52,669 nt of DNA from Thermoplasmata archaeon. GTDB lineage: Archaea; Thermoplasmatota; Thermoplasmata; Lutacidiplasmatales; JAMCUS01. Position 1 is the first letter of the stretch. Every line of letters starts with the position of its first letter. The stretch covers positions 1-52,669 of the forward strand of contig JBMFVL010000003.1 of assembly GCA_049966015.1 (NCBI GenBank), written 5' to 3'. This document shows positions 48,887 through 51,966 of the stretch, one piece after another. Under the pieces are notes generated by a model. That model did not search any database. It saw only the letters and a program-made list of their open reading frames with translations, and was not told where the DNA came from. The position numbers and the translations under genes are program-made.

Positions 48887-49163
48887 TTTTACCACTATTT
48901 ATTGCCTCTACTATTACATCGTAAAAATCACTTGGCTTTGCACCAATTATAGTATAAGGCTCAAGATAACTTATGATCTCCTCCTTAAGTTGTTCATTCA
49001 ATTCCTTTCCATTGATTTTATTGTTCAATTCATTTAACATTTCTTCTGGATAAAGAAAAAAGTCACCACTAAAGAAAATATTTTTTATTTTGTTATCTTC
49101 ATAATCCATACATAGCCGGATGGTTTTCCCACCTTCAATACGTTTTACAAATTCAATATACAT
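48873..49163 (-). CDS. Lipoate-protein ligase C-terminal subunit (LplB-like)
   Basis: GGKTIR and FSGDFFLYPEE motifs; coupled to lplA. Confidence 0.85.
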   Translation of the reverse strand: MYIEFVKRIEGGKTIRLCMDYEDNKIKNIFFSGDFFLYPEEMLNELNNKINGKELNEQLKEEIISYLEPYTIIGAKPSDFYDVIVEAINSGKNVKS

Positions 49164-50004
49164 CTTTCACCTTCTTTAATGAAGATTCAAATAATTCTTT
49201 AAATGGCAGGTACAGTTCCTTTCTTACTTTGTATTCTTCACCCATGTTCCACTCGATTGTAGAATACCTGTTTTTATAAAGTGAATCGCTCATGCTTTTT
49301 TCTTCTTCGGATAAAGAATCTATAGTTGCATTACATCTAAAATATTCTGAAAATCCGTTCGTTAATATTTTGGATATTTCATCTAGGCTTATATCTTTGT
49401 TTAATTCTTCTTTGAGTGTTGTAACCCTTTTTCTTACGCTTTGAACAGCTTTGGCTTCCAGTTTAACTTTTGGAACATTCAACACTTCAGATAAAATACT
49501 TAAATCAGAAGATATCATTAACGTTCCATGAACAAAATAGCCATTTCTTAATTTTGAGGCTGCCATACCGGATATTTTTTTGTGGTCTATTTCAATATCG
49601 TTGAGAGGAGCAAATTGTGCATTAATTCCCAATTTTTGTAATGAGTGTATAATACCTCCTGCTACATATTCATACACATTTTTTATGTCTCTGTATTGGT
49701 TAAAATCGCTTGTAAATGACAAGGCAAAATTGAGATTGCCTAGGTCGTGATATACTGCCCCACCACCGGTAAATCTTCTAACAAAATAGGTATTATATTT
49801 TCTAGACGAGTCTATATTGATTTCTAGCCTTGGATACTGAAATCTTCCTATGACAATTGTATTGCTGTTTCTCCATAACCTTAAAATGGCCGTATTAGAA
49901 TCTTTTTCAGAAGTTTCTAAAACCCGGGGGATTGCCTCTTCTACGGCCATGTTGTAATAGGGATTGTTTAATTCTTCGTATTGCACAACTCTAAGTTTAT
50001 TCAT
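49153..50004 (-). CDS. lplA: Lipoate-protein ligase A catalytic subunit
   Basis: NMAVEEA, RRFTGGGAVYHDLGN, ND...KKISG and HGTL motifs. Confidence 0.93.
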   Translation of the reverse strand: MNKLRVVQYEELNNPYYNMAVEEAIPRVLETSEKDSNTAILRLWRNSNTIVIGRFQYPRLEINIDSSRKYNTYFVRRFTGGGAVYHDLGNLNFALSFTSDFNQYRDIKNVYEYVAGGIIHSLQKLGINAQFAPLNDIEIDHKKISGMAASKLRNGYFVHGTLMISSDLSILSEVLNVPKVKLEAKAVQSVRKRVTTLKEELNKDISLDEISKILTNGFSEYFRCNATIDSLSEEEKSMSDSLYKNRYSTIEWNMGEEYKVRKELYLPFKELFESSLKKVKDVY

Positions 50005-50046
50005 TAGAACACCGGTTCATTTGATAATAAGAGGTTTATGTCAATG

Positions 50047-50156
50047 CGGGCCCGCCGGGATTCTCATTTTTTTGAACCCGGGATTGAGGTTGACTCCAAT
50101 GGTTCCGGAGACCTCTGTGATATCCATTATAGTTATTATTGCTACACTACGGGCCC
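50047..50156 (-). tRNA. tRNA-Arg(CCG) with three predicted introns (50127-50139, 50092-50104, 50061-50070)
   Basis: Acceptor stem GGGCCCG/CGGGCCC, anticodon stem GAGGT/ACCTC with loop CT-CCG-GA, T stem CCGGG/CCCGG. Removing 13+13+10 nt gives a 74-nt cloverleaf. Confidence 0.88.
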
Positions 50157-50172
50157 CTATACATTATTTAAA

Positions 50173-50334
50173 TCATTTTTTATTTTTGAATATTGTATAC
50201 CCACATTTCCCACAGGATACCCTGTCCTTATGGGTTGCAAGATATACACCTTCTCCACACTTCGGGCATCGTTCCTTTGTTTTTTTAACTTTGTCTTTTT
50301 CAGCTTTATAAAGCAACTTGGCACTTATTGTCAA
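50173..50334 (-). CDS. rps27ae: 30S ribosomal protein S27ae (not in the ORF track; TTG start)
   Basis: Manual translation [53 protein letters not shown]; GGTGA SD upstream; conserved position after rps24e. Confidence 0.95.
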
Positions 50335-50340
50335 ATCTAA

Positions 50341-50706
50341 TCACCCTTCTTTTTTGGTTTCTTCCTTCTTTTCTGCCTTCTTTTCTTCAGCTGGTTTAGA
50401 TTCTTCCTTCTTTTCTGATTTTTTCTCTACCAATCCATTTCTTATCAGAATGTGTTTCCTTTCAATTTTCATTATATGGTTCTTGTCTTTGTATACATGT
50501 GCTGTGCCATATATTTCATATTTGCCAAATGTTGTTTTAATAGATTCTAATATTATTAGATCCTTGGAGATTTTCAAGTTGTCTGCTAATAGTTTCTTTA
50601 CGTCGTCTCTTTTGGGCGTCGGGCTGTCTTTGTGGAATACCTTAAAGTTTACTACGTTCCTATTCAAAAATTTATCTTCTACGTTGCTTTTAATAACTAC
50701 TTCCAT
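50341..50706 (-). CDS. rps24e: 30S ribosomal protein S24e
   Basis: FLNR...F.V.H...PTPKR and TTFG...GTAHVY motifs; K/E-rich tail. Confidence 0.93.
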   Translation of the reverse strand: MEVVIKSNVEDKFLNRNVVNFKVFHKDSPTPKRDDVKKLLADNLKISKDLIILESIKTTFGKYEIYGTAHVYKDKNHIMKIERKHILIRNGLVEKKSEKKEESKPAEEKKAEKKEETKKEG

Positions 50707-51193
50707 TGTTCATCACCATTTCTTCCATAATTTCCTTTACTTTTTTTTTGATTTTGGGTTCGACATTAACAATTACAATACCTTTATCGGGTTGACCATA
50801 AAGAACTTTGCTATCATTTGGTAAAAAATGTATTAAGGGCAGTGTCGCCAAATCTTCTTCTCCCTGGACTCTAATAAGGGTTCTTTCTTTACGTTCAACG
50901 GCATGTTCTATTGCATTGTACAGATCATTTGAGATATATCCGGGATCGGATTTAACACTGATATGTGTGTATTCTGGCATTATAATACCCTTTATTTTTT
51001 CATTTCTTTTTGTTTTTTGATCAATTACCGCTATTTTCATTTTAAACCCTTTTTGGTACACATTTTTTGTTGTTATATCTCCACATGTTGCAATTAAGTC
51101 ATTGGGAGATATATATTTATCTAACATGTCAGGTGATATCACCACACCCAATGGTTCTTTTAACATTTCTCTTAATTTATCATTTATTTTCAT
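50690..51193 (-). CDS. GTP-dependent dephospho-CoA kinase (DUF359)
   Basis: LKEPLG, GDITT, D.KTKR, GEEDLA.LP and YGQP motifs. Confidence 0.92.
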   Translation of the reverse strand: MKINDKLREMLKEPLGVVISPDMLDKYISPNDLIATCGDITTKNVYQKGFKMKIAVIDQKTKRNEKIKGIIMPEYTHISVKSDPGYISNDLYNAIEHAVERKERTLIRVQGEEDLATLPLIHFLPNDSKVLYGQPDKGIVIVNVEPKIKKKVKEIMEEMVMNNGSSY

Positions 51194-51198
51194 TTACC

Positions 51199-51411
51199 TC
51201 ACTTGACTTTGACTGCGTATTTTCCTTCTTTCTGTATTTTTAGAGCTTTTGCTATTTCAGATTTATCCGGATCCACTATTATTATATAACCACTCCAATC
51301 CTTGGATAATGAATCACTTCCACAATTAGGGCATTTTTGCTCATTTGTTATATACCTGCAATTTTTACATGCTCTAGGTTTTGAAACAATATTTGCCATT
51401 CTCTCACTCAA
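51199..51411 (-). CDS. spt4: Transcription elongation factor Spt4 (RpoE'')
   Basis: ACKNC...CPNCGS...WSG.III.DP..SEIAK pattern. Start may be the ATG at 51399. Confidence 0.95.
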   Translation of the reverse strand: MSERMANIVSKPRACKNCRYITNEQKCPNCGSDSLSKDWSGYIIIVDPDKSEIAKALKIQKEGKYAVKVK

Positions 51412-51414
51412 CCC

Positions 51415-51966
51415 TTACTTTTTTTCATTATTTTCCTGTATCCATTCTTTTTTACCTAATCCAGGTTGCCTCATTGTTAATCCAATACGGCTATCTTTTA
51501 CATTCTGGACATTCATAGACATCATAACAACTCTTGTAGATAGCTTGGTACCTACTTTTATATCTTTTCTGCTTGCTTTACCTATGATACGCTTATTACC
51601 CAGATCAATTTCTAATTGATCATCCATTATTTGGCTTATGTGCAATAAAGCTGTCAGTGGACCAATACTTAAAAAAGCCCCGAATTTTTCTATGCCAATA
51701 ACGATACCTTCTAATATTTCATTGATTTCTATATGAAAGTTTAAAGATTCAAATTTTATAGGTTGATGTACAGATGGATCACCTAAAACTATATCACCAT
51801 CCCCAACAGGGGTTACACTCAACAATTGCACTATAATATCACCGTTTTTGTTTAGTGTGCCCTCATATTGCTGTTTGGTTAATGAAATTACACTGGCAGA
51901 ATAATCTTCACCTAGTTTATTTGGAGGTATTTTAACAACACCATCATCAACACTTTTTGAAAACAT
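51415..51966 (-). CDS. rpoE1: DNA-directed RNA polymerase subunit E' (Rpo7)
   Basis: VKIPP, GD, FGAF..IGP...LLHISQI and IGLTMRQPGLGK motifs. Confidence 0.95.
   Translation of the reverse strand: MFSKSVDDGVVKIPPNKLGEDYSASVISLTKQQYEGTLNKNGDIIVQLLSVTPVGDGDIVLGDPSVHQPIKFESLNFHIEINEILEGIVIGIEKFGAFLSIGPLTALLHISQIMDDQLEIDLGNKRIIGKASRKDIKVGTKLSTRVVMMSMNVQNVKDSRIGLTMRQPGLGKKEWIQENNEKK

What the first reader, a model, noticed from the sequence alone, without database searches (positions are those of the whole stretch)
50047..50156. Triple-intron tRNA-Arg(CCG) in a Thermoplasmata-like archaeon
Seen: the minus strand reads GGGCCCGTAGTGTAGCA[ATAATAACTATAA]TGGATATCACAGAGGTCTCCGG[AACCATTGGAGTC]AACCTCAATCCCGGGTTCAAA[AAAATGAGAA]TCCCGGCGGGCCCG. 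Excising the bracketed parts yields a 74-nt Arg cloverleaf with A20 and discriminator G. The 37/38 intron forms a strict BHB (helix CUCC/GGAG, bulges GG^A and UC^A). The T-loop intron (59/60) forms a relaxed BHL (UUCA/UGAG, AA^U). The D-loop intron (about 17/17a) forms GUAG/CUAU with bulges CA^A and AA^U. Known: multi-intron and non-canonical-intron tRNAs are characteristic of Thermoproteales and some DPANN archaea, while euryarchaeal tRNAs usually carry at most the 37/38 intron. Standard scanners would probably miss this gene or call it a pseudogene.
Basis: partly seen in the sequence, partly recalled or inferred. Interest (0 to 1): 0.85.

Follow-up and report, generated by a model that had tools for sequence, protein, structure and literature searches.

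The report
Triple-intron arginine tRNA in Thermoplasmata
This is a real arginine tRNA gene interrupted by three very short introns, in an archaeal group whose intron-cutting enzyme is of a type thought unable to remove most introns of this sort.

Summary
Window 50047-50156 (minus strand) holds a 110-nt gene. Removing 13, 13 and 10 nt gives a 74-nt tRNA-Arg(CCG) that ARAGORN accepts.

- **Scanners:** ARAGORN and Rfam miss the unspliced gene.
- **Orthologues:** seven same-order genomes carry a gap-free intronless 74-nt orthologue. Three carry only the T-loop intron. The one same-family genome carries all three inserts at the same places, with different sequences.
- **Covariation:** three stem pairs show compensatory changes.
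- **Intron geometry:** each insert has a 4-bp helix between two 3-nt bulges cut after the second base. None has a full inner helix, so all three are relaxed motifs.
- **Genome context:** this is the only tRNA-Arg(CCG) gene in the assembly. My census finds 46 tRNA genes; 26 are interrupted, by 37 introns: 15 T-loop, 8 D-loop and 14 anticodon-loop.
- **Splicing enzymes:** the genome has one two-unit (alpha'2-like) splicing endonuclease without the loops linked to broad specificity, and an RtcB ligase.
- **Not shown:** splicing itself; no RNA data were found.

This is a new member of a known kind. The lineage-wide pattern challenges the current model of enzyme and intron co-evolution.

The parts
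50047..50156 (-). Whole tRNA-Arg(CCG) gene: 110 nt, four exon pieces and three introns. It lies in the gap between the S27ae gene and the lipoate-protein ligase gene.
50140..50156 (-). Exon piece 1 (pre-tRNA 1-17): acceptor 5' strand, T8 A9, D stem 5' strand, A14 G15 C16 A17.
50127..50139 (-). Intron 1, D loop at 17/17a, 13 nt. Central helix GTAG/CTAT, bulges CA^A and AA^T, h 1 bp, h' 1 bp. An alternative 16-nt reading spans 50128-50143.
   Evidence: same register in the paralogue Arg-GCG (h' 7 bp) and in L159
50105..50126 (-). Exon piece 2 (pre-tRNA 31-52): rest of the D loop with G18 G19 A20, D stem 3' strand, anticodon stem 5' strand, C32 T33, anticodon CCG, G37.
50092..50104 (-). Intron 2, canonical position 37/38, 13 nt. 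Central helix CTCC/GGAG, bulges GG^A and TC^A, h 5 bp (anticodon stem), h' 1 bp.
50071..50091 (-). Exon piece 3 (pre-tRNA 66-86): A38, anticodon stem 3' strand, 4-nt variable loop, T stem 5' strand, T54-A59.
50061..50070 (-). Intron 3, T loop at 59/60, 10 nt. Central helix TTCA/TGAG, bulges AA^A and AA^T, h 5 bp (T stem), h' 0, i.e. bulge-helix-loop.
50047..50060 (-). Exon piece 4 (pre-tRNA 97-110): T60, T stem 3' strand, acceptor 3' strand, discriminator G.
50173..50334 (-). Upstream neighbour: ribosomal protein S27ae gene. The same neighbour precedes the orthologous tRNA in G001 and G007.
49153..50004 (-). Downstream neighbour: lipoate-protein ligase gene.

Best explanation
The locus is the genome's single, functional tRNA-Arg(CCG) gene.

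Inferred mechanism (not shown):
- It is transcribed as a precursor of about 110 nt.
- The archaeal splicing endonuclease (EndA, one gene, G000:C58) cuts at three bulge-helix-bulge-like motifs.
- This removes a 13-nt D-loop intron (17/17a), a 13-nt anticodon-loop intron (37/38) and a 10-nt T-loop intron (59/60).
- The RtcB ligase joins the four pieces into a 74-nt tRNA that reads the rare CGG codon.

Shown here: the gene, its three inserts, their motif geometry, conservation with compensatory changes, and the presence of the EndA and RtcB genes.

Inferred only: transcription, cleavage at exactly these bonds, ligation, and the order of removal.
For: 1. The spliced product is a canonical Arg(CCG) cloverleaf.

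2. A MAFFT alignment of 12 orthologues shows three clean insert blocks. Of the 12, 7 are intronless (f2), 3 have only the T-loop intron (f3) and 2 have all three (f1: G000 and G001). The exons align without gaps.

3. On that alignment, 93.1% of cells pair. Three pairs change on both sides (4:69, 31:39, 50:64), one in each of the acceptor, anticodon and T stems. No slid register shows any such pair, and 0 of 500 shuffles reach the covariation score.

4. G001 has the inserts at the same three places, but with different lengths (about 18-21, 13 and 14 nt) and different sequences. Its anticodon-loop and T-loop introns keep a 4/4 central helix.

5. All three G000 inserts satisfy the 4-bp helix plus 3-nt bulge rule at the cut defined by homology. 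Shuffled inserts do so in 2.3%, 0.15% and 2.1% of trials.

6. The same geometry holds genome-wide:
- 14 of 15 T-loop introns have a 4/4 helix, and 15 of 15 have the 3' bulge AA^T.
- All 8 D-loop introns have a 4/4 option consistent with the mature loop.
- 7 of 14 anticodon-loop introns are 4/4 and 7 of 14 are 3/4.

7. The standard archaeal set of 46 tRNA genes is reached only if the 26 interrupted genes are counted. No other CCG anticodon was found.

8. EndA and RtcB are both encoded.

9. CGG is used: 193 of 288494 codons in 553 long ORFs.

10. DNA contigs from two other public runs, about 88-90% identical, run across the gene. None of the 12 listed indels falls inside 50047-50156; 3 further indels were not shown.
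Against: - No RNA evidence. No listed run holds this sequence as RNA, so neither the precursor nor the spliced product has been seen.
- All three motifs are relaxed (h' 0-1 bp; the D-loop motif also has h of only 1 bp).
- In published assays, an alpha'2-type EndA (A. fulgidus) 'barely cleaved' a relaxed T-loop 59/60 intron (PMC3488258, passage read).
- This genome's only EndA is alpha'2-like and lacks the loops tied to broad specificity.
- The minimum-free-energy fold of the precursor uses a shifted register in the T loop and a 5-bp helix in the D region, rather than the ideal motif.
- tRNA-Arg(UCG) could in principle read CGG (general knowledge), so the gene need not be essential.
- G001's D-loop helix is only 3/4 in the 17/17a register.
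Confidence: 0.85

Rival explanations
1. Same gene and same mechanism, but the D-loop intron is 16 nt, not 13. The cut falls after T13 (helix TAGT/ACTA, bulges GT^A and TA^A), giving a 71-nt tRNA with a 7-nt D loop ATGGATA.
For: This register is 4/4 in both family members: G000 (TAGT/ACTA, h 3) and G001 (TAGT/GCTA). The 17/17a register is 4/4 in G000 but only 3/4 in G001. A 7-nt D loop exists in other tRNAs of this genome, for example Thr-GGT.
Against: - The 13-nt reading gives a 10-nt D loop, AGCATGGATA. This matches the length and the A14 G15 of all 10 orthologues outside the family (AGCTTGGATA, AGTTTGGATA).
- The paralogue Arg-GCG has its D-loop intron in the 17/17a register with a 7-bp inner helix.
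- In L159 (family f23) the 17/17a register reproduces exactly the D loop AGCT|TGGATA of intronless orthologues.
- The 16-nt reading would use T8-T11 as the helix strand.
Confidence: 0.2
2. The gene is a decaying pseudogene. The three inserts are neutral insertions in a tRNA no longer needed, because tRNA-Arg(UCG) reads CGG.
For: - CGG is rare, at 0.67 per 1000 codons.
- Standard scanners do not recognise the locus.
- The motifs are relaxed.
Against: - The exons are kept nearly identical to orthologues across three families, while the inserts differ freely.
- There are compensatory changes in three stems.
- The inserts sit at the same three places in G001 and keep the helix-bulge geometry.
- The same kinds of insert occur in 25 other tRNA genes, including sole genes for Asp, Asn, His, Trp and Tyr, which cannot all be pseudogenes.
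Confidence: 0.04
3. One or more inserts, most plausibly the D-loop one, are not removed and stay in the mature tRNA as an enlarged loop.
For: The D-loop motif has almost no flanking helices (h 1, h' 1). The D-loop regions around 17 and 20 tolerate length variation in known tRNAs (general knowledge).
Against: - A 13-32-nt insert at this place carries the splice geometry in three independent settings: G000 Arg-CCG, G000 Arg-GCG with a 7-bp h', and L159.
- All 8 D-loop inserts of the genome have a 4/4 option.
- An insert in the T loop would break the conserved T-loop fold (general knowledge).
Confidence: 0.05
4. The inserts are assembly or binning artefacts of this metagenome-assembled genome.
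For: The genome is a draft of 111 contigs with runs of N.
Against: - The separately assembled same-family genome G001 has the same architecture.
- Contigs of two further public runs from two studies cross the gene collinearly.
- 14 other T-arm mini-introns lie on 12 other contigs.
Confidence: 0.01

Closest known systems
Multiple-intron tRNA genes of Thermoproteales and of Candidatus Micrarchaeum acidiphilum ARMAN-2
   Same: - Up to several short introns per tRNA gene, at non-canonical places including 59/60 in the T loop.
- Relaxed bulge-helix-bulge motifs.
- A large share of tRNA genes interrupted: 56% in ARMAN-2 (PMC3239211, passages read) against 26 of 46 (57%) here.
   Different: - Those lineages have (alpha-beta)2 or epsilon2 endonucleases with a specific loop, CSL or ASL (PMC3239211, PMC5829648, PMC3488258; passages read).
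- This genome is a Thermoplasmata with one two-unit alpha'2-like EndA and no such insert.
- The Thermoproteales part of this comparison is recalled, not read here.
[quoted passage not shown]
   Same: Same position and same relaxed type. The T stem acts as the outer helix, there is a 4-bp central helix and a proper 3' bulge, and the 5' site lies in a loop (PMC3239211 figure legend; compare).
   Different: That intron was cut by the epsilon2 enzyme, and by an A. fulgidus enzyme only after grafting the ASL loop (PMC3488258). Here 15 genes carry such an intron and the enzyme has no ASL.
Methanopyrus kandleri pre-tRNA-Glu(UUC), with a D-loop intron (20b/21, HBh') plus a canonical intron
   Same: A euryarchaeal-grade lineage with a relaxed D-loop intron in a multi-intron tRNA, and an EndA without a specific loop (PMC5829648, passages and section 16 read).
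   Different: M. kandleri has a single such gene and an (alpha-beta)2 enzyme that removes it inefficiently. Here there are 8 D-loop and 15 T-loop introns. The best PDB sequence match of this EndA is in fact the fused M. kandleri enzyme, 5x89.
tRNA-Arg(CCG) genes of other Thermoplasmata families
   Same: Orthologous exons. The same three insertion points occur singly or in pairs:
- T loop only: f3, and G004 of f2.
- Anticodon loop plus T loop: f10 (L126-L128; L129's second intron by eye).
- D loop only at 17/17a: L159 of f23.

   Different: None of those examined combines all three. Their T-loop introns are longer (13-47 nt), and in f3 and G004 they have an inner helix of 11-12 or 4 bp, closer to a strict motif.

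Membership tests
tRNA (Arg, anticodon CCG) | Cloverleaf with 7-bp acceptor stem, D arm, 5-bp anticodon stem with 7-nt loop, and 5-bp T stem with 7-nt loop, after removal of the inserts | tested here: met
   ARAGORN calls the script-spliced 74-mer tRNA-Arg(ccg)
tRNA (Arg, anticodon CCG) | Match to the Rfam tRNA model RF00005 on the genomic sequence | tested here: not met
   No match at gathering score or at E<=10. This is expected for a gene split in four. The spliced form could not be given to Infernal.
tRNA (Arg, anticodon CCG) | Orthology with recognised intronless tRNA-Arg(CCG) genes | tested here: met
   The exons align gap-free with 7 intronless 74-nt orthologues. G019's copy is itself an RF00005 match (G019:C1:41605-41678).
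tRNA (Arg, anticodon CCG) | Stems kept by compensatory change | tested here: met
   3 pairs with changes on both sides; the three long stems are 100% paired; slid controls give 0. The sample is small: 9 distinct rows.
tRNA (Arg, anticodon CCG) | Transcribed, processed and charged with arginine | not testable with these tools
   No RNA run listed
Archaeal BHB/BHL tRNA intron (EndA substrate) | 4-bp central helix flanked by two 3-nt bulges, each cut after its second base | tested here: met
   All three introns are 4/4 at the cut defined by homology. Shuffle controls: 469, 29 and 424 of 20000.
Archaeal BHB/BHL tRNA intron (EndA substrate) | Strict hBHBh' form: both flanking helices of 2 bp or more | tested here: not met
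   D loop h 1, h' 1; anticodon loop h 5, h' 1; T loop h 5, h' 0. All three are relaxed forms.
Archaeal BHB/BHL tRNA intron (EndA substrate) | Splicing endonuclease and RtcB ligase encoded in the genome | tested here: met
   EndA PF01974 x2 + PF02778 x2 in one 359-aa ORF. RtcB PF01139 at 582 bits.
Archaeal BHB/BHL tRNA intron (EndA substrate) | Excised intron or spliced junction observed in RNA | not testable with these tools
   No RNA holder listed
alpha'2-type (two-unit homodimeric) EndA | One polypeptide with two tandem endonuclease units; no separate alpha or beta subunit gene | tested here: met
   Two N-terminal and two C-terminal domain matches in one ORF. No second EndA-like gene by Pfam or by tblastn at E<0.1. 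The assembly is 94% complete.
alpha'2-type (two-unit homodimeric) EndA | Catalytic Tyr-His-Lys in the C-terminal unit | tested here: met
   Y297, H305 and K336 are invariant in 6 of 6 order members. They align to the corresponding stretch of M. jannaschii EndA 1a79. The identity of the triad residues is taken from the papers.
Broad-specificity EndA [(alpha-beta)2 with CSL/L1, epsilon2 with ASL/L2, or L3-bearing forms] | Inserted 'specific loop' near the active site | tested here: not met
   - The catalytic unit is collinear with loop-less M. jannaschii EndA, with gaps of only 1 and 2 residues.
- It is 7 residues shorter than ARMAN-2 between the catalytic Tyr and His, which is the L3 site.
- No length variation at either site in 85 Thermoplasmata EndAs.
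- The A. pernix alignment was not displayed, so absence of L1 rests on the M. jannaschii comparison.

The most novel reading that the evidence does not exclude
One Thermoplasmata family (G000 and G001) underwent a burst of minimal bulge-helix-loop introns in T and D loops. These include 15 T-loop and 8 D-loop introns in G000, where 57% of all tRNA genes are interrupted. Yet the family keeps the ordinary two-unit alpha'2-like EndA of its class, with no L1, L2 or L3 loop.

If these tRNAs are functional, this enzyme cleaves relaxed motifs at non-canonical positions. In that case inserted loops are not required for broad specificity. The determinant would have to be one of:
- point substitutions (the family differs from 82-83 of 85 class members at positions 221 and 225 of the loop region);
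- a helper factor;
- something intrinsic to Thermoplasmata EndAs, whose tRNA-Arg(CCG) carries T-loop or D-loop introns in several families.
Probability: 0.5. Interest if true: 0.72.

Novelty: new member of a known kind. Interest (0 to 1): 0.6.

Why it matters
Multi-intron tRNAs are known. The published picture links them to endonucleases that gained a specific loop: (alpha-beta)2, epsilon2, or L3-bearing alpha4 forms. In that picture alpha'2 enzymes of Euryarchaeota-grade lineages are restricted to strict motifs (PMC5829648, PMC3488258).

This gene, with 25 other interrupted tRNA genes in the same genome, offers a natural counter-example in Thermoplasmata. It comes with a graded series of relatives carrying 0, 1, 2 or 3 introns in the same tRNA.

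- **A direct test:** this makes the question "what sets EndA substrate range?" testable with one enzyme family and defined substrates.
- **Annotation:** ARAGORN finds 23 (default) or 30 (-i) and RF00005 33 of the 46 tRNA genes here, and ARAGORN default finds no tRNA-Arg. Automated tRNA counts and completeness or codon-capacity inferences for such genomes would therefore be wrong.

Tried and rejected
- **ARAGORN with lowered threshold** (-i -ps90) gave 216 mostly spurious calls and still missed the locus.
- **First version of my scanner** gave 1438 rows, almost all A+T-rich false positives. Requiring 3 or more G-C pairs in the acceptor and T stems left 45 rows. I dropped 7 of these: 3 at C8:11348, 3 inside the rRNA on C42, and 1 alternative parse of C18:5845.
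- **RF00005 hit counts as a proxy for tRNA disruption in relatives** were uninformative. The counts were 28 (G001), 38 and 36 (f3), and 33 and 34 (f2).
- **The search for related loci with the single EndA protein** found nothing. The alignment A1 worked.
- **Automatic choice of D-loop cuts by best score** picked doubtful cuts for Arg-CCG, Gln-TTG and Arg-TCT. I use the cuts consistent with paralogue and orthologue D loops instead.
- **Lys218 as a family-specific determinant in EndA:** rejected. K is present in 43 of 85 Thermoplasmata EndAs.
- **RNA evidence:** no RNA holder was listed. The two DNA runs that were laid are contigs only and say nothing on expression.
- **Rfam at E<=10** gave one match beside the gene (DUF2815 RNA, 15.9 bits, E 4.7), taken as chance.
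- **Supplementary files of the papers** were not opened. The tRNA tables of PMC3239211 and PMC5829648 may list Thermoplasmata species that I could not see.

Full report
**Observation**

ARAGORN finds no tRNA in the whole window. Rfam finds nothing at gathering score. At E<=10 around the locus it finds only a chance match to DUF2815 RNA.

A script cut the 110 nt into pieces of 17/13/22/13/21/10/14 nt and joined the four outer pieces. ARAGORN calls the 74-nt product tRNA-Arg(ccg), with full stems, a T loop TTCAAAT and discriminator G. Exons are 62% G+C and the inserts 8%, 46% and 20%. The genome is 34.5% G+C.

The gene fills the gap between a ribosomal protein S27ae gene and a lipoate-protein ligase gene. 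It lies at the end of an RpoE'-Spt4-DUF359-S24e-S27ae cluster.

**Comparative test**

The window is contig C3 of a 1.42-Mb, 111-contig, 94%-complete genome. Record titles of the closest relatives of its splicing endonuclease place it in the Thermoplasmata.

A DNA search of 40 relatives, followed by pattern extraction, gave 12 orthologous tRNA-Arg(CCG) genes:
- 7 genomes of family f2 have an intronless 74-nt gene.
- 3 genomes of family f3 have only a 33-34-nt insert in the T loop.
- The one other genome of the window's own family (G001) has three inserts at the same three places as the window. Their sequences and lengths differ.

MAFFT places the three inserts as clean gap blocks, and the exons align without gaps. 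On this alignment the cloverleaf is 93.1% paired. Three pairs change on both sides: 4:69 in G001, 31:39 in G000, and 50:64 in two f3 genomes. No slid register shows any such pair, and 0 of 500 shuffles reach the covariation score. There are only 9 distinct rows, so this is supporting evidence, not a statistical proof.

In G001 and G007 the gene again follows S27ae. Contigs from two other public DNA runs, about 88-90% identical to the window, cross the gene. None of the 12 listed indels lies within 50047-50156, but 3 more were not shown. Assembly error is therefore very unlikely.

**Intron anatomy**

At the cuts defined by homology, each insert has a 4-bp central helix flanked by two 3-nt bulges, each cut after its second base:

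| Intron | Central helix | 5' bulge | 3' bulge | Outer helix h | Inner helix h' |
|---|---|---|---|---|---|
| D loop | GTAG/CTAT | CA^A | AA^T | 1 | 1 |
| 37/38 | CTCC/GGAG | GG^A | TC^A | 5 | 1 |
| T loop | TTCA/TGAG | AA^A | AA^T | 5 | 0 |

Shuffling each insert in place gives a 4/4 helix at that cut in 469, 29 and 424 of 20000 trials.

None of the three has an inner helix of 2 bp or more, so all are relaxed motifs. The minimum-free-energy fold of the precursor keeps the acceptor, anticodon and T stems and the TC^A bulge. It prefers a shifted register in the T loop and a 5-bp helix in the D region.

The D-loop boundaries are the least certain point. A 16-nt reading (cut after T13, helix TAGT/ACTA) is also 4/4, and it is 4/4 in G001, where the 17/17a register is only 3/4. 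I favour 17/17a for three reasons:
- It gives the 10-nt D loop and the A14 G15 of all orthologues.
- The paralogue Arg-GCG has its intron in this register with a 7-bp inner helix.
- In a family f23 genome (L159), the same register restores exactly the D loop of intronless orthologues.

**Genome context**

ARAGORN finds 23 tRNA genes by default and 30 with introns allowed. RF00005 finds 33 above its cut-off. I built my own scanner, anchored on the acceptor and T stems and on the contiguous 22-31 block. It gave 38 loci (7 of 45 rows dropped, see Tried and rejected). Eight further genes came from ARAGORN or RF00005 hits read by eye. Together these make the standard archaeal set of 46 genes.

Of the 46, 26 are interrupted, by 37 introns: 15 in the T loop at 59/60, 8 in the D loop and 14 in the anticodon loop. 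Sixteen genes have one intron, 9 have two, and this gene alone has three.

- T-loop introns are mostly 10-13 nt. 14 of 15 have a 4/4 helix, 15 of 15 end in AA^T, and 12 of 15 have no inner helix.
- This is the only gene with anticodon CCG.
- All five tRNA-Arg genes are interrupted.
- CGG is rare but used, at 0.67 per 1000 codons.

This census is hand-built. Introns inside stems, or tRNA genes lacking a TTCRA T loop, could have been missed.

**Distribution**

I built a covariance model of the T arm with its mini-intron from 14 G000 genes plus the G001 Arg-CCG gene. It finds 14 matches in G000 and 12 in G001. It finds at most 1 per genome in the other 99 genomes sampled from the order (17 of them have one match). 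It finds at most 2 per genome in the 150 other genomes sampled from the class (22 have a match). The model is trained on this genome's introns, so it under-detects long or dissimilar ones.

The class-level hits that I read were again tRNA-Arg(CCG):
- In family f10 it carries a 37/38 intron plus a 13-20-nt T-loop intron (L126-L128; for L129 the second intron was read by eye, because my script mis-parsed it).
- In G004 (f2) it carries a 47-nt T-loop intron with a 4-bp inner helix.
- In L159 (f23) it carries a 32-nt D-loop intron.

The f3 T-loop introns have an inner helix of 11-12 bp.

So the three positions are old or recurrent in this tRNA across the class. The window's family combines all three, shrinks them, and has spread the T-loop type to 14 other tRNA genes.

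The genome counts include two unpublished genomes (G029 and G015). No specific claim beyond those counts rests on them.

**Enzymes**

The genome has one endonuclease gene, a 359-aa ORF with two N-terminal and two C-terminal EndA domains. No second copy appears by tblastn. It also has an RtcB ligase.

- The best solved relatives by sequence are the fused M. kandleri enzyme 5x89, M. jannaschii 1a79, A. fulgidus 1r0v and ARMAN-2 4fz2.
- The catalytic unit is collinear with the loop-less M. jannaschii enzyme, with gaps of 1 and 2 residues.
- It is 7 residues shorter than ARMAN-2 between the catalytic Tyr and His.
- Orthologues in f1, f2 and f3 are collinear.
- None of 85 Thermoplasmata EndAs varies in length at either loop site.

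The papers I read (abstracts and passages) make these statements:
- Only (alpha-beta)2 and epsilon2 enzymes cleave non-canonical introns, and they do so through inserted loops. L3-bearing alpha4 forms also go with disrupted tRNA genes (PMC5829648, abstract, passages and section 16).
- 56% disruption in ARMAN-2 is "extraordinarily large" among Euryarchaeota (PMC3239211).
- Wild-type alpha'2 A. fulgidus EndA barely cleaved a relaxed T-loop 59/60 intron until the ASL loop was grafted in (PMC3488258).

This genome therefore pairs a loop-less alpha'2-like enzyme with 23 introns at non-canonical positions, most of them relaxed. I could not test cleavage.

**Literature on novelty**

Four full-text searches found no paper describing disrupted or multi-intron tRNA genes in Thermoplasmata. 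They combined Thermoplasmata or Thermoplasmat- with tRNA intron, non-canonical, noncanonical intron, disrupted tRNA, and intron-containing tRNA. The library lacks most subscription journals, and supplements were closed.

**Verdict**

This is a real tRNA-Arg(CCG) gene with three introns. It is most likely spliced by EndA and RtcB (confidence 0.85; exact D-loop bonds about 0.65 within that). As an object it is a new member of a known kind.

The wider pattern is the more interesting result and is directly testable. It has three parts: a Thermoplasmata family with more than half of its tRNA genes interrupted by minimal relaxed introns, an endonuclease without any specific loop, and a 0/1/2/3-intron series of the same tRNA across the class.

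Noticed in passing
G000:C1:58552-58636 (+), outside the window: tRNA-Leu with anticodon AAG (anticodon loop CTAAGGA), where archaea usually have GAG. No Leu-GAG gene was found. ARAGORN also calls it Leu(aag). A34 tRNAs were reported as unusual in ARMAN-4/5 (PMC3239211 passage).
   Followed up: no
G000 contigs C3, C16 (two genes), C47, C57: All five tRNA-Arg genes (CCG, TCG, CCT, GCG, TCT) are interrupted, four of them in the D loop. ARAGORN default finds no tRNA-Arg in the genome. Arg-TCT and Arg-CCT share the same D-loop intron helix and bulges (GGAT/GTCC, AA^A).
   Followed up: partly
L118:1-28 (Gly-CCC) and L115:1-28 (Arg-TCG); also L111, L113, L120: The 28-nt T arm with its mini-intron is identical in Gly-CCC and Arg-TCG, and differs by 1-3 bases in Gly-TCC, Glu-CTC and Arg-TCT. 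This could reflect copying of the T arm with its intron between tRNA genes, or simply the constraint of pairing with TTCAA.
   Followed up: no
L126-L129 (family f10), L157 (G004, f2), L159 (G206, f23): tRNA-Arg(CCG) of other Thermoplasmata families carries T-loop, anticodon-loop or D-loop introns in various combinations. In one search further families show hits that stop at position 60 or at about 40-42 of the 74-nt query, which hints at more such cases that I did not read.
   Followed up: partly
L001:1474-2553 (-), EndA residues 219-225: The window's family has GKVFDNYLVL / GKVMNEYLVL. In 85 Thermoplasmata EndAs, 82 have Gly at 221 and 81 have Gln or Glu at 225. This stretch aligns with the M. 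jannaschii segment YGNVEGNFLSL. Whether it lies at the ASL/CSL insertion site could not be checked without coordinates.
   Followed up: partly
L001:150-935 (-), G000:C58: A run of N inside a protein-coding ORF, flanked by a duplicated stretch (the same 27 residues on both sides of the gap). This looks like a scaffolding artefact next to the EndA gene.
   Followed up: no
window 49000-51500: Contigs about 88-90% identical over the whole 2.5 kb occur in two public DNA runs, labelled hot springs metagenome and hypersaline lake metagenome. So close relatives of this organism exist in other samples. One of them replaces 60 nt at 50335-50394 by 18 other letters.
   Followed up: no
G000:C42:10965-11286: My tRNA scanner's false positives on this contig lie in what reads as a small-subunit rRNA gene on the opposite strand. 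It was not used for taxonomy.
   Followed up: no
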